NCBI GenBank assembly: GCA_963779615.1 | Contig: CAVZZA010000001.1 | Coordinates: 96,001 to 160,000 of the forward strand | Direction of reading: 5' to 3' | Origin: an uncultured Nitrososphaeraceae archaeon | GTDB taxonomy: Archaea; Thermoproteota; Nitrososphaeria; Nitrososphaerales; Nitrososphaeraceae | DNA length: 64,000 nt | In this document: one piece after another, positions 34,080 to 53,005 of the stretch | Layout of the letters: every line of letters begins with the position of its first letter | Position numbering within the stretch: position 1 is the first letter of the stretch | The notes under the pieces: generated by a model | The model's database searches: none | What the model was told of the DNA's origin: nothing | The model's input: only the letters and a program-made list of their open reading frames with translations | Made by a program: the position numbers and the translations under genes

Positions 34080-34154
34080 GGGTCCGTAGCGTAGTCAGGA
34101 TATCGCGGCGGTCTTCGGAACCGCAAACCGTGGGATCGAAGCCCATCGGGCCCG
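34080..34154 (+). tRNA. tRNA-Arg (anticodon TCG), intron-less, CCA not encoded
   Basis: Acceptor GGGTCCG/CGGGCCC, D arm GCG/CGC, anticodon stem GCGGT/ACCGC with loop CT-TCG-GA, T arm GTGGG-ATCGAAG-CCCAT, discriminator G. Confidence 0.93.
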
Positions 34155-34209
34155 TTACGATAATGGCTCTTTTAAATGGGTTCTACTAAAATATGGTGTA
34201 AAGAAAAAA

Positions 34210-34992
34210 GTGGTAGAATATAATAATCAAGAGCAAGATACTTGGTCGCTGTATTTGTATGCGATGAAATCGCCAGTGACAAGGGATAAGTACCAAAAAA
34301 GGTTAGAGAAATTCTTTGACTCTTTAGGTTTAGAAGGGATAACAATAGAGGAAAAAAGCAGAGTTTTTGTTAATATAGCAAAGAAAGAAGGCAATGGATG
34401 GATATTCAATCAGGTATTGAAATTTATGCAGTTTCAGTTAGAGAGAGCAAACAGAAAAGAGATAACTAGCTCAACCATCAGAAATTATTTAAAAAGCATA
34501 AAGTTATTTTGTGAAATGGCCGACTTTCAGATAGCATGGAAAAAGATTTCAAGGGGACTTCCAAGAGCAAAAAACTACTCGGATGACAGAATCCCAACGA
34601 TAGATGAAATAAGGAAACTATTGGAATATCCGGATAGAAGATTGAAGTCAATCATCTATACTATGGCTTCATCAGGCATTCGTCTTGGTGCGTGGGATTA
34701 TCTAAAATGGGGCCACATTCGCCCGATAGAGAAAGAAGGAGAGGTTATCGCCGCTAAGAGTATTGTTTATGCAGAAGAAGAAGACGAATATTTCTCGTTT
34801 ATATCAAAAGAATCGTTCCAATCTTTAAAAGATTGGATGAATTACAGAGAATTTTCTGGGGAGTTAATAGATGAAAACAGTTGGGTTATGCGAGACTTAT
34901 GGGACACTCAAGACATTCAAAGAAATGGAAAAGGAGTTATGGAGAAAAAACTTTGGTTTAATTTGCATTTAAAGAAAAAAGAAAAGGAATGA
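34210..34992 (+). pseudogene. Tyrosine recombinase/integrase, C-terminally truncated
   Basis: STIRNYLKSIKLF core-binding domain, PTIDEIRKLL, MASSGIRLG (box I Arg); no HxxR or catalytic Tyr, ORF runs into AT-rich sequence after ~34935; 55 bp downstream of the tRNA. Confidence 0.85.
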
Positions 34993-35016
34993 TTCTTTTC
35001 AACTTTCAGTTAGTTA

Positions 35017-35673
35017 TTATGGAACCAAACTTGAACATTCTGCAAATACGGTAAGCCTGTTTCCAATGGACGTTCCATTATATTTACCAGTAACCTCCCA
35101 TCCTGCATTTCCGGGTGTTGCGGAATCATCGAAAATAATAAAATCATCCACATCGAACTTGAATTCCCAGGTGTATCCACCACCAGTAGCCTTTTCTCCC
35201 GGATTGCATGAAGCGGTTGCAGTAATTATTTGTCCATTGCTGGTTACTGGAGCGCCCTCCCTTTCAATCACTTGAAGTGTTCGTGGAGGACCTGCAGGTC
35301 CCTGAATTCCTTGTGGTCCTGCTAATCCTCGCTCTCCATCAGCACCTGCTGATCCTGGAATCCCAGAGGTAGAAGCTGCAGTGTCAGAGGAAAGGGAGCT
35401 TGTATTGGTTGTGCTCTGGTCAATAAAACTGGTTGCTGTATTATCATTGCCCGTTAGCTGTTGTCCTTCGTTTGCCTGCCTGCAACCGTCAGACCTATTA
35501 CAGAGATTGTCCTTATTCATGTTTTGTTTGACATCCTGTTCTAAGTCTGAAGACTTGGGACTCGCATATGCCGACTGTTGTAATGGAGTAAGATTTGGCA
35601 ATAAAGCAAACAAGGATGCTAATGATATTGCCATAACGACTGTAATCGTTAAATGGCTTAAACTGTTATTCAA
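35017..35673 (-). CDS. Secreted protein with a Cys-pair N/Q-rich domain, collagen-like repeat and C-terminal beta domain
   Basis: Signal ending AYA; DNLCNRSDGCRQANEGQQ; 9 Gly-X-Y triplets; ASCNPGEKATGGGY...FAEC. Confidence 0.8.
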   Translation of the reverse strand: MNNSLSHLTITVVMAISLASLFALLPNLTPLQQSAYASPKSSDLEQDVKQNMNKDNLCNRSDGCRQANEGQQLTGNDNTATSFIDQSTTNTSSLSSDTAASTSGIPGSAGADGERGLAGPQGIQGPAGPPRTLQVIEREGAPVTSNGQIITATASCNPGEKATGGGYTWEFKFDVDDFIIFDDSATPGNAGWEVTGKYNGTSIGNRLTVFAECSSLVP

Positions 35674-36046
35674 TTCTAACAGTTAGGTTAAGTCAGTATA
35701 TCTGAAATATTCAGAAATGCTATTATACTTTTATAATCTTTTTACTTCGATAGAAAACTACTAGAGTACACAAATAAATTTTTACTAACGGATATTCCTA
35801 CAGCATTTAAGGCGGGACACTGATGCCCTGATTGTGCATGTCTATGACCAATTTTTCCTTTTGCTGTCTGTTTAGAATCATCTTTTTTACAGAAGATATG
35901 GATATACAGGTTGGTTTTTAATGGTGCAAGAAATCACCCCTTATTATAACTCCTTGTTACAAAATCAAGGGTACTACTACATGTGTTGTTTTTTGTGTTG
36001 TTTTTGATTAAGAACAACATGTTTTATTTTAATGTGCACAAAGCAA

Positions 36047-36340
36047 TTATTCCCTAAATTTTTTCCCGAATGTTGTCGAGATTATGGACGTTCCAGTAAA
36101 GGTGACGGTCCAGTATATCCATGGATTTCCACCATTCCCCCTGACAACAAAGCAGGGACCAAGGACCTGGCAGGGTTCATTGATGCTCCAGTTATAAGGC
36201 CAAAAAGAGTATGTCCAAGCAAATAAATCCTTCAATAACAATACCACCAAAACCCCTCAAGCCCTTTGTATATGCCACCACCAAAATTACAGCCACCAGT
36301 AAAGCAGAGGCATAAGACCTAATGATGAGTGGCAAGGCAA
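36047..36340 (-). pseudogene. Aquaporin (MIP family) C-terminal remnant
   Basis: ASALLVAVILVVAYTKGLRGFGGI...ITGASMNPARSLVPALLSG...WIYWT across frameshifts; second NPA motif; 5' end approximate. Confidence 0.8.
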
Positions 36341-36564
36341 GGTTTCCGGCTGCCCTAACTACATGGCATCAACCCGCAAATAATTCGAAAAATGCCCAAA
36401 GACTTTAGGTCATTGGCGCTGTCAAAGCGGCCTCAGAATAATTTTTGTCCAAAGACAAAGCCCTTATTGCTTAGGTGGCCGCCTAACTTTACTCCAAGAC
36501 TTTATGCTTGCAAAGACAGATGAAAGTACTGCATCTAAGGTTGTTTATAAGATAAGGTTGAATC

Positions 36565-36635
36565 AAGTTTGAAAGAAAGGTTATGGAGATTAGGGGTTTG
36601 CCTACAAAGGGTACGGCTATGTAAAAAATACGCTA
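36565..36635. repeat. 71-bp dispersed repeat, copy 1 (3' flank of the YVTN-repeat gene)
   Basis: AAGTTTGAAAGAAAGGTTATGG...TAAAAAATACGCTA resembles 42429-42499. Confidence 0.7.
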
Positions 36636-36980
36636 GGCGGGCCTTCCATAGGTGTTGGTTACTGTGCATGTGGCTGTTTGACCCCCACTATTTATTGTGC
36701 TATTGCACCCTTCCGAATATGTCGTTGTGAGGGGCACTATTACAGAGACTGTATTAGCATTATTGTTTGTTACATACATAAATCCATTAATATGATTAAA
36801 GGTGATTAAAGGCAATTCCAAATGGCCCTGGACCCACAGGAATGGTTCCCACAACCGTGTTTGTTGAGGGGTCCATCACGGAGACGGTATTACTACCAAA
36901 GTTCGTCACATACATATTCCCATTGTCAGGATTAAAAGCGATATACAATGGTTCGGAGTTCGCAGTTGAATCTAATCACA
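36633..36980 (-). pseudogene. YVTN/YncE beta-propeller surface protein, 3' remnant
   Basis: IAFNPDNGNMYVTNFGSNTVSVMD...IPVGPGPFGIAFN then MYVTNNNANTVSVI; frameshift caused by the 10-bp tandem duplication TGATTAAAGG at 36793-36812. Confidence 0.85.
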
Positions 36981-37352
36981 ATGTAGAAATATAAATCAAT
37001 TTCGAAAATAGGGCTCTTAACATAACACTAAATTCATACTTGAAGATATCCTATCTCCTTTGTGAATGCCAAAAATAGGACATCTTCATCAGGCTTTGTT
37101 GACTTTGGCTTAAATTTTATTTTTCAGGCCTTATCATTAAGAAGCAATATGGTTGACATATCAAAAGGAGAATTGTAAATACTTTCTTTTAGCCTATTAA
37201 CAACATCATGAAAATACAATTAGTGTTTGTACATGTAATAATATCAAGAAATGTTTTCTATTTAATATATTATTATACAGCTACCATATTACTTTCCTCA
37301 TAAAGACTTTGAATGTCAAATTTAACATATCAAATGAGTCCCACTCTAGTAG

Positions 37353-37383
37353 TGAAAATGCTACGGAAACCATCGGGCCTGTT
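37353..37383 (+). repeat. att-like site 1 (arm + tRNA-Arg 3' core)
   Basis: TGAAAATGC-TACG-GAAACCATCGGGCCTGTT. Confidence 0.8.
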
Positions 37384-37737
37384 GTAATTTTACTAATTTG
37401 TTAGGACGAAGCAAAATAAATGGTGAGAAAATAGTGGTTGGAAACATAACTAGAGCAATGAGCAGAGCCTAAAGGAAGGTGATGCGTATTCTTGGCATTT
37501 ATATGGAATAGGATCTCCTATAACCAGAGATACATGTCAGACCATTGAGGATTTTCTTTAATCATGTTCAATTGTTATCTAATGACTAAGCTATGGAAGT
37601 TCTTTGAAATTTATTTATAAAATGAGAGGATGATTGATTTGTTGCACAAAATACCAGATTTAGTAATCCTTCCTCTTCTACACTTATCACCTACTCCATT
37701 TCCCTTTTTCCTCACCATATGACAATTTTATTATGGG

Positions 37738-38602
37738 CTATAGAATTATATTTTTATAATTGTCAAACCTATTATGCTTTACAGCCTCATCCAATATGGT
37801 AAAGGAAACCTGCTCTGCCATTATCCGTAAGTTTCCCACCTCTTCCCTGTATGCATCAAGGGATGTATGATCTTTGTAACCCATATAGACTTCTTTAATT
37901 TTAAAGCCATTCATTAAAGTTTCAATTAGAAACCATACATCAATACCCCAGCCATCTGGTGTTTTATTTCGATTGGTATGGCTTAACAGTGTAGACCAGA
38001 CCTTCATATTTGCACATATTTCACCACTTAATGGTTGTTGAAAATGGGGCGCTTCTGGAAAAAATATTTCAAGCATGGGTTTTGCAATGAGTTTTGTTAC
38101 AGCTCCGTCTCTAGGGTGTCTATCGTAATAGCCTCTTGTCATATCATATCCTTCTTTAAGAATTGGTTCAACTAGCAAGTCGACCCATTCTCTAGAAAGG
38201 TTCCTGATATCTGAATCAAGAAAAAGAGCTAAATCATATTTATTGTTAGTTTTATTGTCATCTGCAATGTTATTTTTAATACTTTTATTGTTGTTTGAAT
38301 ACTTTTTAAATAACACCTCCTCTAAACCTGCCCGCATTGCAATCCCTTTACCAGGAAACTTTTTTACTGGTTGCTCTATTACAATTGTTTTCTCTAACCC
38401 TTTGGCTATTTTAACAGTATTGTCGGTAGAAAAACCATCCACAACAACAACATCAGGGTCATAACGGCTCTGCCTAACTCGGGTTATTGCACTTTCAATT
38501 GTGCTCTCGGAATTTTTTTGTACAAAAAATTATTACTAATTTGGTGTTGTCGTTATCGCTGCCATCAAAATCTTTTGTTGCTCTTTCTTCATTGTTTAAC
38601 AT
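37738..38602 (-). pseudogene. GT-A glycosyltransferase related to glucosyl-/mannosyl-(phospho)glycerate synthases, with one frameshift near the N-terminus
   Basis: MLNNEE...KLVIIFCTK / NSESTIE...VVVVDGFSTD, GKG, DSD, QPLSGE, GWGID; one extra A in the A7 run at 38513-38519. Confidence 0.8.
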
Positions 38603-38764: not shown

Positions 38765-38852
38765 CTCATCAAAATGGTAAAAAATAGAATTCACCCCAAT
38801 GAAAACTTTTAATCTTATGAATTCAAAAATTTATAATATGAAGAATCAGTAA
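38765..38852 (+). pseudogene. 3'-terminal remnant of a GH5 glycoside hydrolase paralogous to 47680-48747
   Basis: LIKMVKNRIHPNENF...NMKNQ* versus LTKVVENRIHPNENF...NIKDQ*. Confidence 0.8.
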
Positions 38853-38975: not shown

Positions 38976-39006
38976 TGAAAATGCATCCGAAACCATCAGA
39001 CCCATT
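38976..39006 (+). repeat. att-like site 2
   Basis: TGAAAATGC-ATCC-GAAACCATCAGACCCATT. Confidence 0.72.
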
Positions 39007-39086
39007 GTAATATTTACTATGAAAATATATAAAAGGAAAAAACATTCCAAATATTAGAATCCACATTAAAGGACTGATGTCGTCCT

Positions 39087-39106
39087 GAAGCCCATCAGGC
39101 CCGTTA
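39087..39106 (+). repeat. att-like site 3 (19/20 match to the tRNA-Arg 3' end, 34138-34157)
   Basis: GAAGCCCATCAGGCCCGTTA versus GAAGCCCATCGGGCCCGTTA. Confidence 0.88.
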
Positions 39107-40327
39107 ACCATACGACTTCAAATAATTGCTCATTTCCAATAACCATTGAAGGGAAAGGAAAGGGACACTATTGCCTGAAGTTAACAACAACCATCACAAA
39201 TATAGAGAAGAAGGCAAAGAATCAGGTGAACATACCACCCATAGATGAATGCTTTCATTATCTGACCACCACTATCGACACGTCAGAAAGCTACCAAAAT
39301 GGGCTGCTCAAGGTTGGTAAGACATCCGAAACAGCCTTGTTGTCTGCCTCCTTTCAGCAATTTATTGCTAACAGCATCCACTCCCATCATTAATGTTTCA
39401 TGTACACCGTCACCATAACCTTCTAACCATGTATACGCACGACGATATCTCCTGCTGCCTACTTGGGCTCTGGATGACCGCGGCGTGCGGCATCCACCAA
39501 TCACGAGCCTCGGTCGCCAAAGCAAAAGTGGATGGACACAATCCCCCCCTTTGAAGTGAGCAGACATCCTTCACCTTGGCACCCCTGAGGGAGGATGATC
39601 CGCTTTGGGGTTGCCCTTTAAACATTGCGGGCGTCATAAGCAGGAGATGCCTCTATGCGGTACCGCACCTTACAAAAAAATGGAGAACCCAGCCATTGCC
39701 AATCAAAATATTTATATATGAGCATATGAGGAGTTGTGTACTTTTATACACCAATCTTTAATGAATTATCCATAAGTATATCTATGTTGGCATTGCTTAT
39801 ATAGCGCAATACAGGGAATAAGGCAGGCATTTGCCAAAACCATTCGTTTGAGGATGGGGGTGTTTTCTGTTGCCACCCACATAGCCCTCCTCCCTAGGCT
39901 GACACAGCATGTTTGGGTTTTTGGTATGCGCATACCCACCATGGCAGCAACATATACCACCGCTGGTTTGGACTCATAAAACAGTTGTAGTTGTAAGCAT
40001 TGGTCTCCTGCAATGCACCATATGGACGATGCGGTGGCCGCGGATTTGCCTTACTGCTTTCCTCCCCACCTTGGTAAAACATGGTATTGGTGGTGGTGGT
40101 GTTGTTGGCTGCCATATTTGACTGGTATTCCCGTATTGTTATGCTGATGAGGCATAGGTGGGTGGCAAAAACGATGCAACCAAAGGATGTTGAGTAGCCT
40201 GTATCATTTTGGAGGCCTATTTCCGCAAAACATGATGGCATATATCCAACGACCAAAATTGATCCTTCATTCCTTCATCACCGAATGAGTATCAACGATG
40301 GATGGGTCTTGGACGTATCGCTTGTTG

Positions 40328-40758
40328 TTATCTTGACGACCCTGCCCGATATTGCTCATCGCTGACCTTTTCCATCCAGTCGACGGTCTTCTTGCGATCG
40401 GTCTGCTCCTGAATGACGACATGGGTCATGGCCGTGGTGAGCCGTGGTGGTCACCGTGGCACCATGCCAATGCTTTTCACCAGGCGGTATCCAGCCACGT
40501 CGCCCGGACGAATTTCCTCGACCAGGCCACCACCCCACACCAGCGCTGTGCCAGAGCGCAACTAGCCGTCATGATTATGGGTCTTCCCCAGCGGATGGGT
40601 GTGCCATGCGGTGCTGGCTCCGGGCTCAAGCGTGACGCTGGCGCCGACCATCCGCATTTGGTCGTTTGCCTGGAACAGGGGTCGATTCTCACTGTGCCGG
40701 CGAAATACTGCTCCGGCCCTTTGGTGAAAGGCTTTGAGCCGCCTCGCTCGATGTCCAT
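40328..40758 (-). pseudogene. Cupin-domain protein, frameshifted
   Basis: KGPEQYFAGTVRIDP, FQANDQ...VTLEPGASTAWHTHPLG, KHWHGAT, VDWMEKVSDEQY in different frames. Confidence 0.85.
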
Positions 40759-40767
40759 TTTTCACCA

Positions 40768-41889
40768 TCAGGCCTTCAGAGAAGCCATGTCAATGGAGAA
40801 GCGATACTTTACATCCGCACGGGACAGTCTCTCGTAGGCCTCGTTGACCTTCTGGATTGGGATGGTTTCCACGTCGGCAGTGATGTTGTGTTTGCCGCAA
40901 AAGTCAAGCATCTCCTGCGTTTCGGCAATACCCCCGATGAGCGAGCCAGAGAGGCTGCGACGCTTGAACAGAAGGCCAAAGGCCGAGACGGCATAGGGCT
41001 TGTCCGGTGCGCCGACGAGGGTGAGGTTGCCGTCGGGGCGGAGCAGTTGTATGTATGCGTTAATGTCGTGCTCGGCGGAGACGGCGTCGAGGATAAAGTC
41101 GAAGCTGCCTGCATGCTTGCTCATCTCATCAGCGTTTCGCGAAATGACCACGTCGTCCGCTCCGAGGCGAAGCGCGTCCTCCTTCTTGCTGGGTGAGGTG
41201 GTAAAGACCACGACATGGGCCCCAAGCGCATGAGCAAACTTTACCGCCATATGACCCAGGCCGCCAAGACCCACCACACCGACCTTTTTGCCTTTGGTGA
41301 CGCCCCAATGCCTCATGGGCGAGTATGTTGTGATTCCGGCGCACAAGAGCGGCGCGGCTCCGGCGAGATTCAGGTTGGGGGGAATGCGCAGGACAAAGTG
41401 CTCCTTGACTACAATGCTGTCGGAATAGCCGCCATATGTGACGCCCCCAAGGTGCGCGTCTGGAGAGTTGTAGGTGAGGGTCATGTGCGGGCAGAACTGC
41501 TCGAGACCGTCCTGGCACTCGGGGCAGTTACCGTCGGAGTCAACCAGGCAGCCGACTGCGGCAGGGTCTCCGGGCTTGAACCTGGTGACTGCGGAGCCTA
41601 CCCTGGTGACACGGCCGACGATCTCATGTCCGGGAACGCATGGATAGACAGTGGGCATTTCGCTCCACTCGTTGCGGACTTGGTGGAGGTCGGAGTGGCA
41701 TATACCGCAGAAAAGGATTTCTACCTGAACATCGTGTTCGCTCGGATCACGCCGTGGGATTGTGGTGGGGGCAAGCGGCGATTTTGCGCCCGCAGCAGCG
41801 TAAGCCTTCGCTTTGTACTGGCCACGTGACTCAGGGCTAAATTGCGCTGTTGACATGACGGTATCATTGCGGGGATGGTATAAAGGCAT
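40768..41889 (-). CDS. Zn-dependent NAD(P) alcohol/aldehyde dehydrogenase (cinnamyl-ADH/YahK-like)
   Basis: CGICHSD, PGHEIVG, APLLCAGITTYSP, GLGGLGH, DVKYRF; GC-rich. Confidence 0.95.
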   Translation of the reverse strand: MPLYHPRNDTVMSTAQFSPESRGQYKAKAYAAAGAKSPLAPTTIPRRDPSEHDVQVEILFCGICHSDLHQVRNEWSEMPTVYPCVPGHEIVGRVTRVGSAVTRFKPGDPAAVGCLVDSDGNCPECQDGLEQFCPHMTLTYNSPDAHLGGVTYGGYSDSIVVKEHFVLRIPPNLNLAGAAPLLCAGITTYSPMRHWGVTKGKKVGVVGLGGLGHMAVKFAHALGAHVVVFTTSPSKKEDALRLGADDVVISRNADEMSKHAGSFDFILDAVSAEHDINAYIQLLRPDGNLTLVGAPDKPYAVSAFGLLFKRRSLSGSLIGGIAETQEMLDFCGKHNITADVETIPIQKVNEAYERLSRADVKYRFSIDMASLKA

Positions 41890-42834: not shown

Positions 42835-44325
42835 CTAGGCTGCTGCGGGTAATGTTTTTCTCTTTAAAATCAGTCCAAATCCAAGGGATACTGCTGACAA
42901 TAACCCTGATGTAAGGAACACCAGATCATAAGATTCATCTGATGGATATGATCCCCTGACCCCCATAGTTTCATGATCGGCCATATATATACCCGCCAGT
43001 GCCGGACCTATTGCCATGCCTACAAACAACAACAGAGCACCAACTCCCACCGATATGCCGGTAAATTCTTTTGGGGATGATGACACTATCATATTCCAGG
43101 TTGCAGTCATGGTAAGTGACAGACCAGTAGCAATTATGGCCAAATTCACAGATACTATAAATTCAGTTGAATTGAACACCAACAATCCAATTGTACCAAA
43201 TAGGCTGATTACTCCACCAATGATCGCAGGCTTTATGCTGCCTATTTTGTTTATGATAAATGGGGTAATGCCTGCAAACACCAGGAAACTTATCATAAAT
43301 GGCAGCTGAACGTTTGCAGCATCCACTGAATCGCCTCCAAACCCCAGTGGAATTGGACTCCTAACCAACTGGACTATTGTTGGATAGATCATGAACATCG
43401 TAATTCCAGTGGTTATCAATATGATGTAGGAGGGTAACAGGATCTTGTCTCGCAACAACCTCAAGTCAACAAACGGAGGCACAGCCTTTCTTTCTACTAC
43501 AACAAACACACTTAACGAAATTACAGATATCAAGAATGCCCCGGCGATTTGCGGAAGATTTTCTTTATTTACGCCGATTTGTATAAGTGTAAGTGCGATT
43601 AGAAAGAAGGATATCGTTGCAGAAAGAGCCAATATACCCTTGATATCTACTGGAAATGCTTTTCGTTTATTATTTGATGCATTTTCTTCAATTATGGATT
43701 TGCTAGATAGACCTGATCCTGTGTTTTCCTTTACTATTTTAGAGATGAGTAGCGTTACTAGTATCTAAAAAGGAACTATAGCCAAGAAAGTCGAGTGCCA
43801 GCCAAAGGCTTGGATGATGCTGGCTCCAACCAACAGGCCAACCACTGAACCTGCTGAATACGCAGATCCAAATATCCCTACAGCTATGGAAAGTTTAGCC
43901 GGTGGGAAGGTATCCCTAAGAAGGCTAAATGCAGCCGGGATCGCCGCTAAACCGGCGCCCTGGATAATTCTTGTGACAAGTAGAAAAGATATGCTATTCG
44001 CGAATCCGCCGGCCGTCAGTCCAACCACATATATCACAAGTAATGATAGTAACACTTTCTTTTTTCTGTACAAATCAGAAAGTCTACCGGCAATGGGGGT
44101 CATCACGGCAGCCACAATCAAGTAAGCACTGAATATCCAGGCCGCGGTTCCGTAGGATATGCTGAATTCGCCTATTATCTCTGGCAGCGCAGGCAAGAGC
44201 ATTGTTTCCGAGAAAAAAACTGTCAAGAGAGTGCTGCTGAGTATTGCTAGTGTAAGCCAAGCATGACGGCCAATAACAGCTGTTTCATTAACTACCTTGT
44301 TTTTTTCACTCTGGTTTTTTACCAT
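42835..44325 (-). pseudogene. MFS (DHA2-like) transporter interrupted by one in-frame TAG at 43765-43767
   Basis: GRLSDLYRKK motif A, RIIQG; ORFs 43765-44325 and 42835-43632 share a frame with an open linker (ILVTLLISK...VDIKGIL). Confidence 0.88.
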
Positions 44326-44822: not shown

Positions 44823-45287
44823 CTACATGTATTTTTTAATGGATTTAGCGGTTATTCTGTCAATTTTGGCCGGATCGGGGTTGTCAAACATCTTGTCGCC
44901 GCAATGCCTGACGGAAAACAACGCCATTTGCTCCAAAATCGGCTGTAACTCTTTGCCCTTTTGGGTAAGGTAGTACTCTATCCTGACTGGAGTCTCGTTG
45001 TACACCTGGCGCCTTATGATTCCGTCATTCTCCATCTCTTTCAGCCGTATTGACAGGGTTTTGGGGTTTATCTCCTCTATTGAATTCAAGAACTCGTTAA
45101 ACCGCTTCTGCCTAACGTAAATCATATTGCGCAATATCAAAAGGGAAAACTTTTTGCCAATTATGTTAAACGTGTTAAAGACAGGGCAGCATTTGCACAG
45201 CATCCCATCTATCACATGTTGCTGCTGCTGCTGTTTGGAATTTTCCCTATTTTCCTGGTGCTGCTCATACGACTCTTGCTCGGTCAA
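44823..45287 (-). CDS. HxlR-family winged-helix transcriptional regulator
   Basis: CCPV...IIGKKFSLLILR, KRFNEF, INPKTLSIRLKEME, PVRIEYYLTQKG. Confidence 0.93.
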   Translation of the reverse strand: MTEQESYEQHQENRENSKQQQQQHVIDGMLCKCCPVFNTFNIIGKKFSLLILRNMIYVRQKRFNEFLNSIEEINPKTLSIRLKEMENDGIIRRQVYNETPVRIEYYLTQKGKELQPILEQMALFSVRHCGDKMFDNPDPAKIDRITAKSIKKYM

Positions 45288-45303
45288 CTTAACAACACTT
45301 CAC

Positions 45304-45357
45304 CTACTTACAGATTTGTCACTTACCAGTTTATATACTTACCTTATTATAGTTAAT
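45304..45357 (+). promoter_or_regulatory. Divergent promoter/operator between the HxlR gene and the Cys-rich gene
   Basis: Three CTTAC motifs around a TTTATATA box; homologous to 44345-44398. Confidence 0.75.
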
Positions 45358-45375
45358 AACACTAAGTGATTTAAA

Positions 45376-45762
45376 ATGGTAGAAAACCAATGTGACTCAA
45401 CCTGTGCGACTCCCAATCGCATAGAAGAACCTGCAACCCACAATCAGAGTTGCTCAAGCACATGTGAATGCCAAACAACAACATCTGGTAATTGCAACAG
45501 CAGTTCTTCTTGTTGTGAAACAGACCCAATTGAAACAGCAAAACAGCTATTGGAAAGCTCCTTCTTTGCAGCGCTGAAAGAGGTTCATGTCGAAAAAATT
45601 AAGAAAATAATTGAAAGGGATTCGGGAGGCACCATAGACAAGACCGCTGAACTGGCGGTCAAAACAATTGAAAAGCAATGGCAGGCATCCGTATCAGCAT
45701 CAAACACAAAGAAAGAGTTCTATGAAGAACTGGGAAGGATTATGGCACCTAATAGCAAATAA
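45376..45762 (+). CDS. Protein with Cys-rich (metallothionein-like) N-terminus and helical C-terminal domain
   Basis: 8 Cys in the first ~47 aa (CDSTC, CSSTCEC, CNSSSSCC). Confidence 0.75.
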   Translation: MVENQCDSTCATPNRIEEPATHNQSCSSTCECQTTTSGNCNSSSSCCETDPIETAKQLLESSFFAALKEVHVEKIKKIIERDSGGTIDKTAELAVKTIEKQWQASVSASNTKKEFYEELGRIMAPNSK

Positions 45763-46864
45763 TGGCAAGCAGATGTACCCTACAATCCCCTTTTTGTTTT
45801 ATTGGCCTTGAGAGTACGGCAGTTAAACAGGTTTACCAGATTTTGTTTATTTTAATACAAACGCCTAGTCGATGACCATACAGGGAATTCTTAGATATTT
45901 CCTTTGATTTAAAACCAGCAGAAAAATGCCTTCCAAATTTATGGTCACTACTGGAATTCGAGGTTGCTATAAAGGATATCCTCCACACAATCAATTGCAC
46001 TCTACTGCCGGCTGGCACAATTTTAGATACATCGGGATGGGATTGTTAGCACCTGACGTTTTCTTCAATTTGTTAACGTGATAAAACAGGCATAATACCA
46101 ACACTATAAACACAAATAGGAATATTTGGTATAGATTTATCTTTTAATTTAATAATTTAAGTCATACATTCGACAGTAATAGCAGACACCATGATGACTT
46201 GCATTTTTTGACACAGTGATGGAAAAAAGGGTTTATGCTTGCCGAATTGTGGTCAAGGTAACTGGATAACTACGGCTTTAGCCATACCGGCATTGAGATC
46301 AGGATTTGATGAGTTGGAGATATATAAAAAAAGAAATGTGGTTAACAGCCATGAATCCCAAAAGCAGGCCATACACCAACACAATGGCCACCAAAGAATT
46401 ACATGCCCCAACTAAAACACCTGCTCTGCTTAAGGGGGATTTGCATTTCGTTACCAATTCCTCTAAACACTATGACAAAGATATACTTGATTTGGAACCC
46501 AATAAACCACAATCTAACAAATCACTGAATAAAGGCAACAATCAAAATATGAACAGGAGTGTTTAAGAAATAATGAGAATAATTGAGCAAGCAAACAATG
46601 CCGGAAAAACAAAAAGGGCAAATATTGCCAATTTGTATGGTTCTTCTTTCTAAGAACAATACCAAACAGGTCACCTAATTCCTAGTTGCCTTTTTTGTTA
46701 ACAATAACGCCCTATTAATATACTCAACGATAGGAGTCGGTATAAAGCATAAAACCTAAAGTTATCACATCAGTTTTGAATCTAAATATTTCGGACAAAC
46801 GAATCAAAATAACTAACATCAAATCCATGGGATTTTGCAGTTGCGTGTCTTATCTAAAGCCGAT

Positions 46865-47679: not shown

Positions 47680-48747
47680 ATGTACTTGTCAAAAGGCCCA
47701 ATTAATAGAATGCTGATAGGGGTCAACTTTGATGGAGTCAAGATTGCTGAACGCCAAAACCGTCAAAAGGCAGCACCCCCAAGCAACTACATTAGCGATT
47801 CTTTCAGAATTTTTTCCAAAAGTGGATTAAACTGCATAAGAATACCTTTTTACTGGGAATCTTTTGAAAAGGATCCTATTGGCTTCATTGAAGAGTTAGA
47901 GATCATTTCAGACGAGGCGGATAAAAACGATTTAAAGTGCATTTATGACAACCACCAGTGGAAATGCTCCTCCTTGTTAGGTTACGGGATCGGATTTCCA
48001 GATTCATTATTACACACCATATCGCAACGAAAGCCTCCAACTTACGATTCTTGGAGTCCTCCAAATAAAAGAGAACTTGAAACATTCTGGAATCAATGGT
48101 GGGACAGAAAAGCAGCAAACAGCGAAAATAAGGACGGATGGGAATCACAAAGAGACTTTTTAAAAATAGTCATAAGCAAACTGAATAACAAGAAATCCAC
48201 ATTTGGATTTGAAATACTTAATGAACCCCAGGTATACAGAAATTCCGACTTCAAGAAGGTTTCAGATGACCATAACTACATGGTAGAAAATCTAGAAAAA
48301 CACACAGAAAAGCCATTCCTTTTCTCTTGCGCACACTCCAAATCAACAAGGTCATTTGGTTTTCCATGGAGACAATCCAAAATTAGACCCACAATCGAAA
48401 CAAAAAACAGGATGATATTTGACATACACCCATATCCACCGCATTACGTAGTTTTGTTATACTATAAATTAGTATCTACATTAATGAAAAATGATAAAAT
48501 GTTTGCAGGAGAGTTTAATTCAGGAGTAAAGGAGAATGCAACAATAAATCCAAAACAACATGCACAGTACACCAAAAGATTTTTAGGCTTTTCACTGCAT
48601 GGTGCCACCTTTTGGTGGTGGTCATATGAACCCGACAGCGCCCATCCTGCATTTAATTTAACCAAGGTGGTGGAAAACAGGATTCATCCCAACGAAAACT
48701 TTGTAAATCTTATTAAATCGATATCACAGAACATAAAGGATCAGTAA
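47680..48747 (+). CDS. Glycoside hydrolase family 5 (cellulase-like)
   Basis: IRIPFYWE, DNHQ, FEILNEP (acid/base), DIHPY, AGEF (nucleophile), WWW; no signal peptide. Confidence 0.85.
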   Translation: MYLSKGPINRMLIGVNFDGVKIAERQNRQKAAPPSNYISDSFRIFSKSGLNCIRIPFYWESFEKDPIGFIEELEIISDEADKNDLKCIYDNHQWKCSSLLGYGIGFPDSLLHTISQRKPPTYDSWSPPNKRELETFWNQWWDRKAANSENKDGWESQRDFLKIVISKLNNKKSTFGFEILNEPQVYRNSDFKKVSDDHNYMVENLEKHTEKPFLFSCAHSKSTRSFGFPWRQSKIRPTIETKNRMIFDIHPYPPHYVVLLYYKLVSTLMKNDKMFAGEFNSGVKENATINPKQHAQYTKRFLGFSLHGATFWWWSYEPDSAHPAFNLTKVVENRIHPNENFVNLIKSISQNIKDQ

Positions 48748-48882: not shown

Positions 48883-48913
48883 TGAAAACGCAGGGGAAAC
48901 CACCGGGCCTATT
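48883..48913 (+). repeat. att-like site 4
   Basis: TGAAAACGC-AGGG-GAAACCACCGGGCCTATT. Confidence 0.75.
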
Positions 48914-49442
48914 AATATTTTTAGTAACGCCATGGCATGGCAAATGCAGCATAAAAATTATGATGTTGATCTGGTATCTGCCGTTTTTTTCCAGGCAATA
49001 GTTGTCATTTGTTTACATTATCCTTGCCAGATACAATATAGCCAAAGTAAAAATAAAAAAATAAAAAAAGAGAACCATAATTTCACCCATACAAAAAATA
49101 TTGACATTCAGTTTCTCCATAGAGAAACTAATCTTATATCCGTGATGCATAATTTTTCAATTGCTACACACGTTGATTTTCATGTTGTTTTTGGATGGAG
49201 AATAGCACATTTTTTTGGAAAACTACCTTTCAGACAAGTTCCAAACAATGTTCTTTAAAATGGGTCCCAAAGAGTGATCCAACAATTCACGTAAAATATT
49301 ACTGGTTAAAATTCTACTCAATAATCATCTTAACTTATTTTATAATAACTTTTTCTTAAACTATCTAGGTGGAAAAATTCATTATGAAATTTACGTATAA
49401 AGTGACTAATTCAAGATATACCAAAAGTATGTTATTCCAATA

Positions 49443-49751
49443 ATGAAAAATGCAAATAAAATGCTGCTGATAGCAGCAATTACATCGTTATTAGTCATGG
49501 GAACAAGCATAATTCCGATGCAATCCTATGCAGGAAGCACCAGTGACGAGTTCAAGTCAAAGATAAAATCAAGCACACAAATAGACAAAAAGAGTGCAAG
49601 CCAGCACTTGGACCAGGATAACTTTTGCTACAGAGGCGCTGAATGTCAACAAGCCAACCAAGCCCAACAGATAATCGGAGAAGACAACGAAGCATCAGGA
49701 TTCAATGACCAAAGCTTCAACATAGAGGATTCAACAGACTCCACAGAATAG
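49443..49751 (+). CDS. Small secreted protein with the same Cys-pair N/Q-rich domain as 35017-35673
   Basis: Signal ending SYA; DQDNFCYRGAECQQANQAQQ. Confidence 0.75.
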   Translation: MKNANKMLLIAAITSLLVMGTSIIPMQSYAGSTSDEFKSKIKSSTQIDKKSASQHLDQDNFCYRGAECQQANQAQQIIGEDNEASGFNDQSFNIEDSTDSTE

Positions 49752-49969: not shown

Positions 49970-50454
49970 AAGGCATTCATACCGTAAAGGCACATCTCAT
50001 GGTTAACAACCAGGGAGTCATCATCCACAAAACAGAAAACAAGAAAGGAAAAAGGCATGGCTATGACATATACAAAAAGAATCACCCAATAACCCCAAAG
50101 CATGTTGTCAGCGTGTTTGACCTTGGGTATCTTGGGGTTGGGAAAGACCTTCCTGACCAAAAGTCATAAATGCCAAACAAAAACAAGAGAAGCCAAAAAG
50201 AGTTGGCTCGGGAAGAAAAAGAGCACAAACAGAACCACTCCAGAAAGAGGATAGTGATAGAGCACACTATTTGCAGAATGAAGAGTACAGGATAATGGGC
50301 GATGTCTTCAGAAACAGCCTCAAAAAGTATGATAAGGTGTCAGATATGATAGCAGGACTGGCAAACTACAGAACATTGTCATCTTTTTGGATGGGCATCG
50401 TCAGTCATTGCCGCACTGATAGGGCATACTGTTTCTAATTATGCAAAAGGTCTA
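49970..50454 (+). mobile_element. IS5-family (ISL2-like, DDE_Tnp_4) transposase 3' remnant with right terminal repeat
   Basis: HTVKAHL, FDLGYLG, internal stop, HSRKRIVIEHTICRMK, GLANYR; TTATGCAAAAGGTCTA at 50439-50454; left boundary approximate. Confidence 0.8.
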
Positions 50455-50542
50455 ATGAGGCTTGTCCCTGCAAAGGCCAATTTTGTCGATACAGCTAAAA
50501 CTTATGTAGGGGCATACTGTTAGGAAACTAGTCAATCGTCCT

Positions 50543-52336
50543 TTGTTTAACAATGCAAGGATTCCTCTGTCAAAGGCAAATTCTACCATACTAATTGCGA
50601 TAGCTGTTGTTGCTATATTGCTCTCAGTTTATTCATATCAATATTACACTTTCACTTCTGCTCAAATCTCAGATATTGCTTTACAAGAGATAAAGACAAA
50701 TTCTCAAATCCAAGTACATGATCTTTCGCAAATACTATCAAACAAATTTGAAAGCATAAGCAATCTCTTGCAAGTGCTTGCAGATTCACCAGCCATACAT
50801 AACAACGAGTACAAAAGGGCATCTACCATTATAGACATTAGACAACAATACTCAAATCAACTTACAGATTTTTACATGTGGCTTGACAAAAATGGCAGGA
50901 TGGTTTGGTTGAGCAACATTAGCCAAAGCGACCATCAAAAGTATAAAGGAACAGATTTGAGTTACAGGCCATATTTTTCTGTACCCAGGGATACCCATAC
51001 AGCATATTATAGCAGTTTGATAGAATCAAATGACAAGATTCCCAGGTTATACATATCCTATCCAGTAATCAACAATACAGAAAAAGGATCGCCTGGAATA
51101 TTTACCGGCGTTGTAGTTGCATCAATGAGAGCTACCGCCTTAGAAACCCTGTTACAGCATCAATTAGTTCCGCAATTTAACAGCACAGTAGGACTGCTGG
51201 AGGGAAAAGGCATGGTAATTTATTCGAGCACGCCGTCATTTATTGGTAAAGACGTTTTTGGCAATTACATACAATTTGCATTTTCATCCTCACTTTCTTC
51301 TGAAGATAAAAGTTCGTTAAATAACCTGATAAAGGATTCACTGCATGGAAACAAGGGATCAGACGACATTGCTTTACAGGGAAAAATGAACACCATATCT
51401 TATGAGCCCGTAAACATTAATGGCAAGTACTTTTTGACACTATACGTTATTGCTCCACACAATCTCGCAAGTGACGTTGGTGGGCTAATCAATCAACAGA
51501 AGAACTTTAGTGTCATTATAATAATTGTAATTGCAGCGGTAGCAATCGGTAGTGCGTTTTTGGTACTTTTGTGGAACAAGAGGTTAAAATTCACGGTAGA
51601 TAAAAGGACTGCAGAACTAAAGGCAGCAAATGAACAGTTAAAAGTTCATGACAAGATGCAAAATGAATTCATTAACATTGCCAGTCATGAAATAAAGACT
51701 CCGACTCAAATTCTTCTTAGCTATTCAGAGCTGTTACAAAGACATCCCGAAAAAATGGAACAAATATCTGAGGCAATATTTAGAAACGCCCAGCGGTTAC
51801 AAAAACTTACAAACGATATTCTAGATGTTACAAAAATTGAAAGCCAGACTCTAAAACTAAACAAAGAACAATTCAGCCTGACTGACACAATATCCATTGT
51901 TTTAGAAGATTTCAAAAATAGCATTCAAAATGAAGGCAGAGATATAAAGTTAATATACAAACCCGGTGAGAGTCTGGCAGTAGAAGCAGACAAGGGAATG
52001 ATAACCCAGGTGTTGTATAACATATTAAGCAATGCCATCAAGTTTTGCAAAAAAACTGGTGGAAAGATATATGTTACTACTACAGTGCAGAAAATGCAAA
52101 ATAGCAAGGATAGTGATAAGAAAGCCATTGTTAGCGTCAAAGATGATGGAACAGGCATAGACCCCACCATAATCCCAAGACTATTTACAAAATTTGCCAC
52201 AAAATCAGAAACAGGTAGTGGTTTAGGACTGTTTATATCAAGGGGCATAGTTGAAGCTCATGGTGGAAGAATTGGGGCTCAAAACAATTCTGATGGAGTA
52301 GGGGCCACTTTTTACTTTATGCTACCCATGTCGTAA
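50543..52336 (+). CDS. Membrane sensor histidine kinase with extracellular dCache domain
   Basis: Two TMs, DLSYRPYF Cache motif, ASHEIKTP H-box, NILSNAIKF, DDGTGI, GSGLGL. Confidence 0.95.
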   Translation: MFNNARIPLSKANSTILIAIAVVAILLSVYSYQYYTFTSAQISDIALQEIKTNSQIQVHDLSQILSNKFESISNLLQVLADSPAIHNNEYKRASTIIDIRQQYSNQLTDFYMWLDKNGRMVWLSNISQSDHQKYKGTDLSYRPYFSVPRDTHTAYYSSLIESNDKIPRLYISYPVINNTEKGSPGIFTGVVVASMRATALETLLQHQLVPQFNSTVGLLEGKGMVIYSSTPSFIGKDVFGNYIQFAFSSSLSSEDKSSLNNLIKDSLHGNKGSDDIALQGKMNTISYEPVNINGKYFLTLYVIAPHNLASDVGGLINQQKNFSVIIIIVIAAVAIGSAFLVLLWNKRLKFTVDKRTAELKAANEQLKVHDKMQNEFINIASHEIKTPTQILLSYSELLQRHPEKMEQISEAIFRNAQRLQKLTNDILDVTKIESQTLKLNKEQFSLTDTISIVLEDFKNSIQNEGRDIKLIYKPGESLAVEADKGMITQVLYNILSNAIKFCKKTGGKIYVTTTVQKMQNSKDSDKKAIVSVKDDGTGIDPTIIPRLFTKFATKSETGSGLGLFISRGIVEAHGGRIGAQNNSDGVGATFYFMLPMS

Positions 52337-52974
52337 AAAACAACAAAAAAAAGCAGAGCACAGCGACAAGTGCAACCGCATCGGATCACACAGACATGAA
52401 ACTGATTTGTCAAATCCCACCCCTCAAACACACCACATACATCATACCAAATAAAAGGAACATAGAGAACAAACGGCAACGGCATCAATTAACAAATAAT
52501 GATTGAATGGACTGTTGAACCCTTATCCTGCAAGGTTTTGAACACCCAATGGACAATTCAGATTTTATCTAAAAAAGATACAACGCATTAGATGAACATA
52601 ATTTTAATTGAAAGATAAATTGAACTATTCTAATGAATATTGTTTAGTCATCAATAGCCAAAAAAAAGAATCAACGTTTGAAAGGCTTGGATCGGAATCC
52701 AGTCCCCACCCCTGAGAGAATAATAACCAAATATTTTGAACGGCCTTTCTATGCTTTTAACTGAAATTCTGAATTTGAAAAAGAATAAAGCTAAATTGCT
52801 CCTTTTGTAATGCTATAGATGAATCCTTTACCAATTTGTACAAGTTCGCTAAGTTAGAAATGTAGAATGACCATCACCTACCCAGATAAGGAGCGCCATG
52901 AAAGCAGATTTTTATCAAAAAATCCGCTATAAAAATATCGATTGTTTAGCACACTTTAAATGGTATTTTATCGG

Positions 52975-53005
52975 TGAAAATGCGTCGGAAACCATCTGGC
53001 CCGTT
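52975..53005 (+). repeat. att-like site 5 (last copy seen)
   Basis: TGAAAATGC-GTCG-GAAACCATCTGGCCCGTT; downstream TTCAAATAATT shared with site 3. Confidence 0.82.

What the first reader, a model, noticed from the sequence alone, without database searches (positions are those of the whole stretch)
34080..53005. tRNA-anchored, integron-like array: one integrase, five att-like sites, integrase-free cargo modules
Seen: tRNA-Arg(TCG) ends ...GAAGCCCATCGGGCCCGTTA and is followed by a tyrosine integrase. Five co-oriented degenerate copies of this end lie downstream. One is a 19/20 match (39087). Four align without gaps over 31 bp as TGAAAA(T/C)GC-N4-GAAACCA(T/C)CNG(G/A)CC(C/T)(G/A)TT (37353, 38976, 48883, 52975): the 14-bp tRNA core CCATCGGGCCCGTT preceded by a conserved non-tRNA arm. 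They delimit modules of about 3.2, 1.6, 0.1, 9.8 and 4.1 kb carrying adaptive cargo (surface proteins, osmolyte glycosyltransferase, ADH, MFS/HxlR, GH5, sensor kinase). No module after the first contains an integrase, replication or transfer gene. Established: tyrosine integrases insert at tRNA 3' ends, and repeated insertion leaves P-arm+core junctions. Inference: small non-autonomous cassettes were captured serially at the tRNA, which acts like an attI site, using a tRNA-proximal or trans-acting integrase. That would be an integron-like gene-capture platform built on tRNA-derived double-stranded att sites rather than hairpin attC sites. The simpler alternative is several ordinary integrative elements that each decayed.
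Basis: partly seen in the sequence, partly recalled or inferred. Interest (0 to 1): 0.85.

Follow-up and report, generated by a model that had tools for sequence, protein, structure and literature searches.

The report
Decayed mobile-element pile-up at a tRNA
Several integrating mobile elements inserted one after another at the same arginine tRNA gene of a soil-type ammonia-oxidising archaeon and then lost their integrase genes, which is a known and ordinary way for genomic islands to grow.

Summary
tRNA-Arg(TCG) lies at 34080-34154. Five co-oriented copies of its 3' end follow within 19 kb, and four share a 31-nt arm-plus-core. The 31-mer pattern occurs nowhere else in the 3.17-Mb genome at up to 2 mismatches.

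The integron-like reading is not supported. The sites are junctions (attR scars) of a head-to-tail array of ordinary tRNA-integrating elements with two divergent tyrosine integrase types.
- The tRNA-proximal integrase is truncated and lacks its catalytic half.
- Integrase 5' remnants follow site 37353 (type 1, weak) and site 39087 (type 2, E 1e-16).
- Site 52975 is followed by the type-2 leader.
- Only site 48883 has nothing detectable after it.

In three related species the same tRNA carries an intact type-2 integrase. In one of them it heads a 31.5-kb element that also has a primase-polymerase. In metagenome contigs the 31-mer sits directly in front of integrase genes in 3-4 of 6 cases.

The cargo shows decay: an MFS gene with a stop, a glycosyltransferase behind stops, a GH5 remnant and an IS-like fragment.

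One item stays open: a 10-copy block without an integrase that shares one breakpoint. Trans-mobilisation of that block is possible but untested.

Verdict: a new member of a known kind, of low interest.

The parts
34080..34154 (+). tRNA-Arg(TCG), the attB. Its last ~17 nt are the shared att core.
   Evidence: ARAGORN; Rfam RF00005, 53.5 bits
34157..34992 (+). Type-1 leader (34157-34209) and truncated type-1 tyrosine integrase (ORF 34210-34992, 260 aa). Homology to full-length relatives ends near residue 240, so the catalytic C-terminal half is missing.
   Evidence: 72.7% identity to residues 1-245 of the 426-aa frame at G000 C4:212891-214168; tail comparison; weak PF02899 match only; PHROG integrase, E 2.3e-5
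35017..35673 (-). Secreted, collagen-like repeat protein of a multi-copy family (cargo of module 1).
   Evidence: ORF; PF01391 match below cut-off; paralogous DNA at several contigs
37353..37383 (+). Junction 1: arm A plus core (1 mismatch in the 14-nt core).
37422..37541 (+). Decayed remnant of the type-1 leader and the first ~30 integrase codons, in the same register to the core as at the tRNA.
   Evidence: tblastn, 27 aa at 44% identity, E 0.005 in a 22-kb database; hmmsearch E 0.052 over 1464 segments; nhmmer E 0.24 with a model that excludes the window's copies; alignment
37738..38442 (-). GT2 / mannosylglycerate-synthase-like glycosyltransferase, probably a pseudogene. The N-terminal part of the domain lies behind three in-frame stops at about 38530-38538.
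   Evidence: Pfam PF21969 and PF00535, with the match starting at profile position 34; upstream translation
38765..38809 (+). Remnant of a GH5 C-terminus, at the same distance from junction 2 as the intact GH5 gene is from junction 4.
   Evidence: tblastn, 12 of 15 residues identical to GH5 residues 327-341; DNA match 38775-38852 to 48668-48747 at 74%; alignment
38976..39006 (+). Junction 2: arm A plus core (3 mismatches in the core).
39041..39106 (+). Junction 3: arm B (39041-39086) plus core (39087-39106, matching 19 of 20 bases of the tRNA end).
   Evidence: arm B is shared with C4:277467, C5:379251 and C5:833452 and with a relative
39107..39327 (+). Type-2 leader and the first ~59 codons of a type-2 integrase. 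The start codon is lost and the gene is truncated.
   Evidence: tblastn, 58 aa at 70.7% identity, E 1.2e-16; hmmsearch E 9.1e-10; nhmmer E 3e-41; alignment
39316..40058 (+). Repeat 'X': ~750 nt that replaces the rest of the integrase in a 10-copy family. No coding signal was found.
40768..41889 (-). Zinc-type NAD(P) alcohol dehydrogenase, intact, in a segment of 58-60% GC.
   Evidence: Pfam; composition; homologs
42835..44325 (-). MFS transporter pseudogene with one in-frame stop at 43765-43767. An intact 500-aa paralog lies on contig C3.
   Evidence: two ORFs, each with an MFS_1 match; read-through and paralog; 80% DNA identity to C3:608796-610338
44823..45287 (-). HxlR-family regulator.
   Evidence: Pfam PF01638, E 1.7e-24
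47680..48747 (+). GH5-like glycoside hydrolase.
   Evidence: Pfam PF00150, 33.6 bits against a cut-off of 23.5
48883..48913 (+). Junction 4: arm A plus core (3 mismatches). No integrase or leader remnant is detectable after it.
   Evidence: negative scans
49970..50458 (.). IS/MITE-like repeat, ~480 bp, with about 30 copies in the genome.
   Evidence: blastn
50543..52336 (+). Sensor histidine kinase.
   Evidence: Pfam HisKA and HATPase_c
52975..53033 (+). Junction 5: arm A plus core (52975-53005), followed by ~30 nt of the type-2 leader.
   Evidence: nhmmer type-2 model, 52993-53033, E 3.9e-7; blastn matches to C4:252026 (92%), C4:277478 and C5:177931
53140..54003 (+). Winged-helix protein just beyond the last junction. 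It is unresolved whether it belongs to a sixth, older element.
   Evidence: weak Pfam wHTH matches below cut-off

Best explanation
The region is a head-to-tail accretion array, in effect a graveyard, of tRNA-integrating elements at tRNA-Arg(TCG) of a Nitrososphaeraceae archaeon. The nearest named relatives are Candidatus Nitrosocosmicus.

How it works. Elements carrying one of two divergent tyrosine integrases recombine their attP with the 3' end of the tRNA. The attP consists of a P arm, a ~14-20-nt core identical to the tRNA end, and a P' arm made of a leader plus the int gene. Type-1 integrases are ~420 aa and type-2 are ~440-460 aa. Each insertion rebuilds the tRNA, places the newcomer's integrase next to it, and pushes the older elements outward behind a scar of P arm plus core. 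The four 31-mers (arm A) and the 19/20 site (arm B) are these scars.

Afterwards the integrase and replication modules were deleted or broken, and part of the cargo decayed or was kept.

Shown: the repeats, the integrase remnants, the pseudogenes, and intact counterparts at the same tRNA in other species.

Inferred: the order of insertions, that deletions fused some neighbouring elements, and that the array is now immobile.
For: 1. The sites are real and locus-specific.

2. The tRNA-proximal integrase covers only residues 1-~240 of a ~420-aa family.

3. Integrase-side remnants sit in the expected place and strand after junctions.
- Type 1 lies at 37422-37541. Three searches agree on this place: E 0.005, 0.052 and 0.24.
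- Type 2 lies at 39107-39327, with E 1.2e-16 for protein and 3e-41 for DNA.
- The type-2 leader lies at 52993-53033, E 3.9e-7.

4. I fetched the locus from 5 same-genus relatives. In 4 of them a type-2 integrase lies directly after tRNA-Arg(TCG). Three have open frames of 437, 448 and 459 aa; the fourth is open for 278 aa. Distal core repeats lie 27-33.5 kb away in G015 and G007, and at 32-33 kb in G012 if a 2-mismatch arm-A core is counted.

5. The 31.5-kb element in one relative encodes the integrase, a winged-helix protein, an 867-aa Prim-Pol and metabolic cargo.

6. Six metagenome contigs carry an exact 31-mer. In 3 of them tblastn finds an integrase right after it: type 1 in L053 and L055, type 2 in L054. 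A fourth (L056) shows the type-2 leader up to the contig end.

7. In one relative and in one named MAG locus, arm A plus core is followed 0.6-1.2 kb later by arm C plus core and an open type-1 frame of 418-426 aa.

8. Decay is visible in the cargo: a stop in the MFS gene, the GT2 N-terminus behind stops, a GH5 remnant and an IS-like repeat.

9. The same genome has a second array of this kind at another tRNA on contig C4. Genome-wide there are 31 junctions of core plus leader plus integrase 5' end, but only 2 full-length open integrase frames behind them.

10. The literature already describes the pattern. Thaumarchaeal elements mostly integrate into tRNA 3' ends and have short att sites, and tyrosine-recombinase elements are known to form arrays by re-using a site (PMC6563490; sections 7 and 13 read in full, plus passages). 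Tandem integration and integrase loss in archaea are also described (PMC8371274, passages only).
Against: - Nothing integrase-like was found after junction 4 (48913 onward) by tblastn, a protein HMM or a DNA HMM.
- The type-1 remnant after junction 1 is weak by every single measure (E 0.005 to 0.24). It rests on three searches agreeing on place, strand and register.
- No primase-polymerase remnant lies in the array.
- No same-species genome or read data could be compared.
- Arm types and integrase types are not paired one-to-one. Arm A closes modules that begin with type-1 remnants and also modules that begin with type-2 remnants. The model explains this only by assuming deletions or recombination between neighbouring elements.
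- Both integrase types match Pfam PF00589 only near or below its cut-off. Their assignment rests on weak profile hits, on source names for homologs ('integrase', 'integrase/recombinase XerD') and on their position next to tRNAs.
Confidence: 0.85

Rival explanations
1. CIME-like reading. The modules began as ordinary elements, but as att-flanked, integrase-less units they are still moved. They would be moved either in cis, together with a functional newcomer, or in trans, by a related full-length integrase. On this reading the tRNA works in practice as a gene-accretion site.
For: - Every module keeps a recognisable arm plus core.
- A block of arm B, core, type-2 leader, the first ~59 integrase codons and repeat X occurs at 10 places in this genome. 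In 7 copies the integrase homology ends at the same point. The block therefore multiplied after losing its integrase.
- At least two different upstream arms abut this block.
- The accretion and cis-mobilisation model is established for bacterial ICE/IME/CIME tandems (PMC5704250, passages only).
Against: - Four copies of the 10-copy block carry arm, core and leader contiguously. The duplicated unit thus spans the att site instead of ending at it, which fits rearrangement as well as att-mediated movement.
- The cores have drifted by 1-3 mismatches in 14.
- No unbroken integrase specific for this core was found in the assembly. The type-2 copy at C4:252 kb is split into two frames. The intact type-1-like genes sit at tRNAs with other cores.
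- The two truncated type-1 copies, in the window and at C4:267756, have different breakpoints, so they were truncated independently.
- There are no data on excision.
Confidence: 0.1
2. This is a dedicated integron-like platform: one tRNA-linked integrase serially captures small non-autonomous cassettes at the tRNA, which acts as attI, through tRNA-derived double-stranded att sites.
For: - Four co-oriented sites share one arm.
- The motif is not scattered through the genome.
- The module after 48913 has no detectable integrase.
Against: - The platform integrase is a truncated pseudogene.
- Remnants of two different integrase types follow internal sites.
- The modules hold several genes on both strands, with pseudogenes and an IS-like repeat.
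- The same 31-mer precedes integrase genes in other genomes.
- Relatives carry complete integrase-primpol elements at this tRNA.
- The sites have no hairpin propensity, with z-scores from -1.6 to +1.0.
Confidence: 0.03
3. The repeats are not recombination scars. They would instead be a repeated regulatory or terminator motif, or tRNA-like pseudogene fragments spread by segmental duplication.
For: - The core alone is only modestly enriched: 6 matches against 2.0 expected, and 1 of 100 shuffles reached 6.
- The region is rich in multi-copy families.
Against: - Arm plus core is unique to this locus in the genome and is always co-oriented with the tRNA.
- It abuts integrase leaders here and in other species.
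- There is no stable fold and no Rfam family other than the tRNA.
Confidence: 0.02

Closest known systems
Tandem accretion arrays of integrative elements and CIMEs at tRNA genes in bacteria (ICESt1/ICESt3-type; Pavlovic 2004 and Bellanger 2011, as cited in PMC5704250)
   Same: Both show site-specific insertion at the 3' end of a gene, repeated use of the rebuilt site, decay of older elements to att-flanked units without integration genes, and chimeric internal att sites (passages of PMC5704250).
   Different: The host here is an archaeon. No conjugation genes are present. Two very divergent integrase families share one core. Mobility of the decayed units is untested here.
Cryptic integrated elements (CIE) of Thaumarchaeota (Krupovic et al. 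2019, PMC6563490)
   Same: Both involve integration into tRNA 3' ends, short att sites, an integrase at one end, primpol or MCM-type replication genes and metabolic cargo (sections 7 and 13 read). The intact element at this tRNA in a relative fits this description.
   Different: The window holds only relics: at least five stacked junctions, no intact integrase and no replication gene. That paper mentions arrays only in general terms, and I did not see this locus or genus treated in the parts I read. Its supplementary tables were not available to me.
Integrons (IntI, attI, attC cassettes)
   Same: Both show serial, co-oriented accumulation of cargo next to one recombination site.
   Different: The window has no intact integrase, no folded attC-type sites and no single-ORF promoterless cassettes. 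Its sites are direct repeats of a tRNA end, and integrase remnants lie inside the array.
SSV-type 'suicidal' integrases of archaea (PMC7253208, search listing and abstract only; PMC8371274, passages)
   Same: Both leave integrase gene fragments next to att sites in archaeal genomes.
   Different: In the SSV type the core lies inside the int ORF, so integration splits the gene. Here the core lies ~55-70 nt upstream of the start codon and the gene reads away from it. The fragments here are therefore deletions, not partition products.

Membership tests
Tandem array of tRNA-integrating elements (accretion island) | An intact tRNA followed by co-oriented direct repeats of its 3' end | tested here: met
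   tRNA at 34080-34154; five downstream repeats, all on the + strand
Tandem array of tRNA-integrating elements (accretion island) | A tyrosine integrase gene next to the tRNA-proximal junction | tested here: met
   Present but truncated: 34210-34992 equals residues 1-~240 of a ~420-aa family
Tandem array of tRNA-integrating elements (accretion island) | An integrase, or its remnant, on the distal side of internal junctions | tested here: met
   Found after 37353 (weak) and 39087 (strong); the type-2 leader follows 52975; 38976 lies 81 nt before the 39087 junction; nothing follows 48883
Tandem array of tRNA-integrating elements (accretion island) | Intact elements of the same integrase types at the same tRNA in related genomes | tested here: met
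   Type 2 in 4 of 5 relatives fetched, 3 of them with open frames of 437-459 aa. Type 1 at tRNA-Arg(TCG) in L036, in three frame pieces
Tandem array of tRNA-integrating elements (accretion island) | Presence/absence of whole modules between strains exactly at the junctions; circular excision products | not testable with these tools
   Only other species are held.
Integron | A functional IntI-type integrase with adjacent attI | tested here: not met
   The only integrase in the array lacks its catalytic half. Pfam gives only a sub-threshold SAM-like domain match
Integron | Cassettes bounded by attC sites that fold as imperfect hairpins | tested here: not met
   Single-strand DNA folds of the five sites +/-30 nt give z-scores of -1.59 to +0.97. 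The sites are direct repeats of the tRNA end
Integron | Cassettes that are mostly single, promoterless, co-oriented ORFs | tested here: not met
   The modules span 0.1-9.8 kb, carry genes on both strands and include pseudogenes and an IS-like repeat
CIME (cis-mobilizable element) | Flanked by att sites but lacking integration and transfer genes | tested here: met
   Each module is bounded by arm-plus-core sites, and only integrase fragments remain
CIME (cis-mobilizable element) | Mobilised together with, or by, a functional related element | not testable with these tools
   No read or strain data. The shared breakpoint in the 10-copy block is only suggestive
Tyrosine recombinase (the two integrase types) | A match to the catalytic-domain family PF00589 | tested here: inconclusive
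   In the genome, 27.5 and 27.0 bits against a cut-off of 27.1 at C1:517 kb and C4:213 kb. A full type-1 protein scores 19.7 bits and a full type-2 protein gets no Pfam hit. XerA NCBIfam gives 22.7 bits against a cut-off of 220. Many of the 120 listed type-2 homologs (of 1624 found) are named integrase or XerD by their sources, and 3 of the 120 carry precomputed PF00589. Profile searches against PDB sequences found nothing. No structure was predicted.

The most novel reading that the evidence does not exclude
Integrase-less, att-flanked modules in these archaea may be non-autonomous integrative elements, not just dead relics. They would be an archaeal counterpart of CIMEs, or 'miniature' integrative elements. 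They would keep only the arm, the core, the leader and the first 30-60 integrase codons, and would be moved by full-length type-1 or type-2 integrases supplied in trans. That would turn the tRNA-Arg genes into gene-accretion sites.

Two observations keep this open.
- A 10-copy block has one shared integrase breakpoint.
- Genome-wide, the ends of the integrase 5' remnants cluster at about codons 30-57 although unrelated DNA follows them.
Probability: 0.12. Interest if true: 0.6.

Novelty: new member of a known kind. Interest (0 to 1): 0.22.

Why it matters
Taken at face value this is ordinary. It documents how a genomic island in a Nitrososphaeraceae ammonia oxidiser was built, by repeated integration at one tRNA followed by loss of the integrases. 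It also shows that two very divergent integrase families compete for the same tRNA-Arg core across a genus.

The practical uses are two. It helps annotation, because the 31-mer and the two leaders mark element borders in these genomes. It also bears on the origin of accessory genes (ADH, MFS/HxlR, GH5, kinase) in soil and host-associated ammonia-oxidising archaea.

It would matter more only if the integrase-less modules turned out to be mobilised in trans.

Tried and rejected
- Clean empty-site comparison. None was possible. The left flank is syntenic with relatives up to ~31.2 kb. The right flank from ~59.3 kb maps to a different contig in a relative, and what had looked like a conserved flank gene at 60232-60726 is a high-copy repeat.
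- Primase-polymerase remnants. None lie in the window.
- Viral contig scan for the 31-mer. It gave 0 hits.
- Rfam scan of 33-56 kb at E <= 0.1. It found only the tRNA.
- Ten small ORFs in Pfam, then four more. None matched a family.
- PHROGs and NCBIfam on full-length integrases. There were no matches above cut-off; only a sub-threshold XerA NCBIfam hit for type 2.
- Profile searches against PDB sequences with shallow alignments of both integrase types found nothing. The profile-profile comparison of type 1 with type 2 was not significant: probability 1.3%, E 0.04.
- Repeat X as a coding region. Mismatches show no three-base phase bias.
- Repeat X as a structured RNA. The alifold energy is only z -3.3 on both strands against column shuffles, which I do not regard as evidence.
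- Shared truncated ancestor for the window's integrase and the copy at C4:267756. Rejected, because their breakpoints differ.
- Earlier notes of this scan. There are none for this genome.
- One search had a faulty filter and was redone. One search was a coordinate slip, corrected.

Full report
**Observation**

The window is G000 contig C1, bases 96001-160000. ARAGORN finds a single tRNA, tRNA-Arg(TCG), at 34080-34154, and Rfam agrees.
None of 100 shuffles gave a match.
- The degenerate 31-mer occurs four times, at 37353, 38976, 48883 and 52975, all on the + strand, with 0.00 expected.
- The 14-nt core alone is only modestly enriched: 6 matches against 2.0 +/- 1.4 expected.
- In the whole 3.17-Mb assembly the 31-mer pattern has no other hit at up to 2 mismatches. 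One more appears at 3 mismatches, at C5:177930.

**The integrase next to the tRNA is broken**

ORF 34210-34992 (260 aa) aligns at 72.7% identity to residues 1-245 of a 426-aa open frame beside tRNA-Arg(GCG) on contig C4. Homology stops near residue 240, whereas the full-length protein continues for ~180 more residues. Pfam sees only a sub-threshold SAM-like N-terminal domain, and PHROGs gives an integrase family at E 2.3e-5. I call this family type 1.

A second family, type 2, is defined by a gene beside an Rfam-detected tRNA at C4:251943-252031. Type 2 is 28-30% identical to a 515-aa gene at C1:517 kb that reaches the PF00589 cut-off. It has 1624 database homologs, many of the 120 listed being named integrase or XerD by their sources. 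Direct profile support for both types is weak. I therefore treat 'tyrosine integrase' as well supported by context, but only borderline by Pfam.

**What follows each site**

- After the tRNA core comes the type-1 leader and the truncated gene.
- After 37353-37383 the best non-self type-1 hit in the region lies at 37422-37541, on the right strand and in the same register to the core as at the tRNA. The scores are tblastn 27 aa at 44% identity, E 0.005 in a 22-kb database; hmmsearch E 0.052 over 1464 six-frame segments; and nhmmer E 0.24 with a model built without the window's copies. Each score is weak; the agreement in place is what counts.
- After 38976-39006 come 34 nt, then a different arm (arm B, 39041-39086), then the 19/20 core at 39087.
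- After that core lie the type-2 leader and the first ~59 codons of a type-2 integrase. The scores are tblastn 70.7% identity over 58 aa, E 1.2e-16; protein HMM E 9.1e-10; and DNA HMM E 3e-41.
- After 52975-53005 come ~30 nt of the type-2 leader, E 3.9e-7, with 92% identity to the copy at C4:252026.
- After 48883-48913 nothing integrase-like was found by any of the three scans.

**Other genomes**

The nearest named relatives of the type-1 gene are MAGs labelled Candidatus Nitrosocosmicus or Nitrososphaeraceae. I fetched the tRNA-Arg(TCG) locus from five same-genus genomes.
- Four carry a type-2 integrase directly after the tRNA. Three have open frames of 437, 448 and 459 aa, and the fourth is open for 278 aa.
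- All five show the type-2 leader right after the tRNA.
- Distal copies of the core lie 31.5 kb away in G015, and 27 and 33.5 kb away in G007. In G012 an arm-A 31-mer is followed 0.6 kb later by a third arm type (C), a core and an open 418-aa type-1-like gene.
- The 31.5-kb element of G015 encodes the integrase, a winged-helix protein, an 867-aa Prim-Pol and metabolic cargo. That is the make-up of thaumarchaeal cryptic integrated elements described in PMC6563490 (section 13 read).

Of the 24 type-1 loci found in public genomes, 9 have an open frame of at least 370 aa, 4 run off contig ends, and 11 are open for only 36-246 aa from the match start. This is a crude measure. The loci sit beside tRNAs of several identities.
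- L036 has tRNA-Arg(TCG), the leader and a type-1 gene in three frame pieces.
- L028 has arm A plus core, then 1.2 kb, then arm C plus core, the leader and a 426-aa frame.

An exact-pattern scan of metagenome contigs gave 6 loci. In L053 and L055 a type-1 integrase follows the 31-mer directly, and in L054 a type-2 integrase does. L056 shows the type-2 leader up to the contig end. L052 and L057 have other flanks.

So where decay is less advanced, the 31-mer is a junction between integrase-bearing elements.

**Decay inside the window**

- The MFS gene is one frame with a single stop, while its paralog on C3 is open for 500 aa.
- The GT2 domain starts at profile position 34, and its upstream part lies behind three stops.
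- A 15-residue remnant of the GH5 C-terminus lies upstream of junction 2, at the same distance as the intact GH5 gene lies from junction 4. Modules 2 and 4 therefore look like relics of related elements.
- An IS/MITE-like repeat with ~30 copies sits at 49970-50458.
- No primpol remnant is present.
- ADH, HxlR, GH5 and the kinase look intact.

**Genome-wide context**

DNA models of 'core plus leader plus integrase 5' end' find 18 type-1 and 13 type-2 junctions in the assembly. Only two of them lead into full-length open frames (C4:213 kb and C3:386 kb), and a third (C4:252 kb) is split into two frames. A second array with the same anatomy lies at the tRNA on C4, with cores at 252015, 267751, 277467 and 287152 followed by type 2, type 1, type 2 and type 2 remnants. 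Loss of integrases at stacked junctions is therefore the rule in this genome.

**Mechanism**

Shown: the repeats, the remnants, the intact counterparts elsewhere, and the pseudogenes.

Inferred: each element entered by recombination between its attP and the tRNA end. The newest element lies nearest the tRNA, and later deletions removed the integrase-primpol ends and fused some neighbours. This last step is needed because arm A closes modules that begin with either integrase type.

This is the accretion-and-decay scheme described for bacterial ICE/IME/CIME tandems (PMC5704250, passages). It has also been noted for archaea: arrays by re-use of a site in PMC6563490, and tandem integration and integrase loss in PMC8371274 (passages).

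**What remains open**

- The block 'arm B, core, type-2 leader, ~59 codons, repeat X' occurs at 10 places. In 7 copies the integrase homology ends at the same point, and most have lost the start codon. Longer copies continue into a GC-rich short-chain dehydrogenase pseudogene. Pieces of X occur in only 3 of 33 other genomes of the genus. The block multiplied without its own integrase, by trans-mobilisation or by rearrangement of arrays. I could not tell which.
- Type-1 remnants genome-wide mostly end at model positions 159-240, although unrelated DNA follows them. I have no tested explanation for this.
- Strain-level breakpoints and circular forms could not be examined.

**Verdict**

The feature is real and correctly observed. 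It is best explained as an ordinary tandem array of decayed tRNA-integrating elements. The integron analogy fails on every defining feature tested. I have not searched exhaustively whether this particular locus is in print.

Noticed in passing
window 39041-40058; also G000 C1:186950, C1:633900, C3:440029, C4:2031, C4:94060, C4:277431, C5:378433, C5:544495, C5:832432: A 10-copy block: arm B, core, type-2 leader, ~59 integrase codons and ~750 nt of non-coding repeat X. Seven copies share one integrase breakpoint. Longer copies run into a GC-rich SDR pseudogene. The block is rare in the rest of the genus: pieces of X occur in 3 of 33 genomes.
   Followed up: partly
G000 genome-wide (31 places): There are 18 type-1 and 13 type-2 junctions of core plus leader plus integrase 5' end. 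Most type-1 remnants stop at about codons 30-57 although different DNA follows each one. The breakpoints therefore cluster without shared descent.
   Followed up: partly
G000 C4:251943-287400: A second array with the same anatomy lies at an Rfam-detected tRNA that ARAGORN does not call. Cores at 252015, 267751, 277467 and 287152 are followed by a frame-split type-2 gene, a truncated type-1 gene, the repeat-X block and a type-2 fragment.
   Followed up: partly
window 49970-50458 and 60232-60726: Two different ~480-500-bp high-copy repeats, IS- or MITE-like. The first has about 30 copies in this genome. The second has dozens of copies in each of five relatives.
   Followed up: no
window 40500-42000: A segment of 58-60% GC in a 36% GC genome carries an intact zinc ADH. 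Homologs at 86-93% identity are very common in metagenomes. Of the five listed hits that carry an organism name, four are Nitrososphaeraceae or Nitrososphaera and one is bacterial. A partial paralog lies at C3:422636.
   Followed up: partly
window 42853-45772: The MFS plus HxlR plus neighbouring-ORF segment is a paralog of C3:608796-611540 at 80-91% DNA identity. The window's MFS copy has a stop and the C3 copy is open.
   Followed up: yes
window 55249-55977: A 217-aa coiled-coil-like ORF belongs to a family with about 10 copies in the genome. Some copies lie beside type-2 remnants, for example at C5:378 kb and C5:829 kb.
   Followed up: no
window 31300-34080: The stretch upstream of the tRNA is also variable. 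In relative G018 the methyltransferase gene (window 30340-31239) lies ~0.9 kb from the tRNA, against 2.8 kb here.
   Followed up: no
window 35400-37150 and 49160-49725: Multi-copy families of small secreted or repeat proteins and their upstream regions have many paralogous places on all contigs.
   Followed up: no
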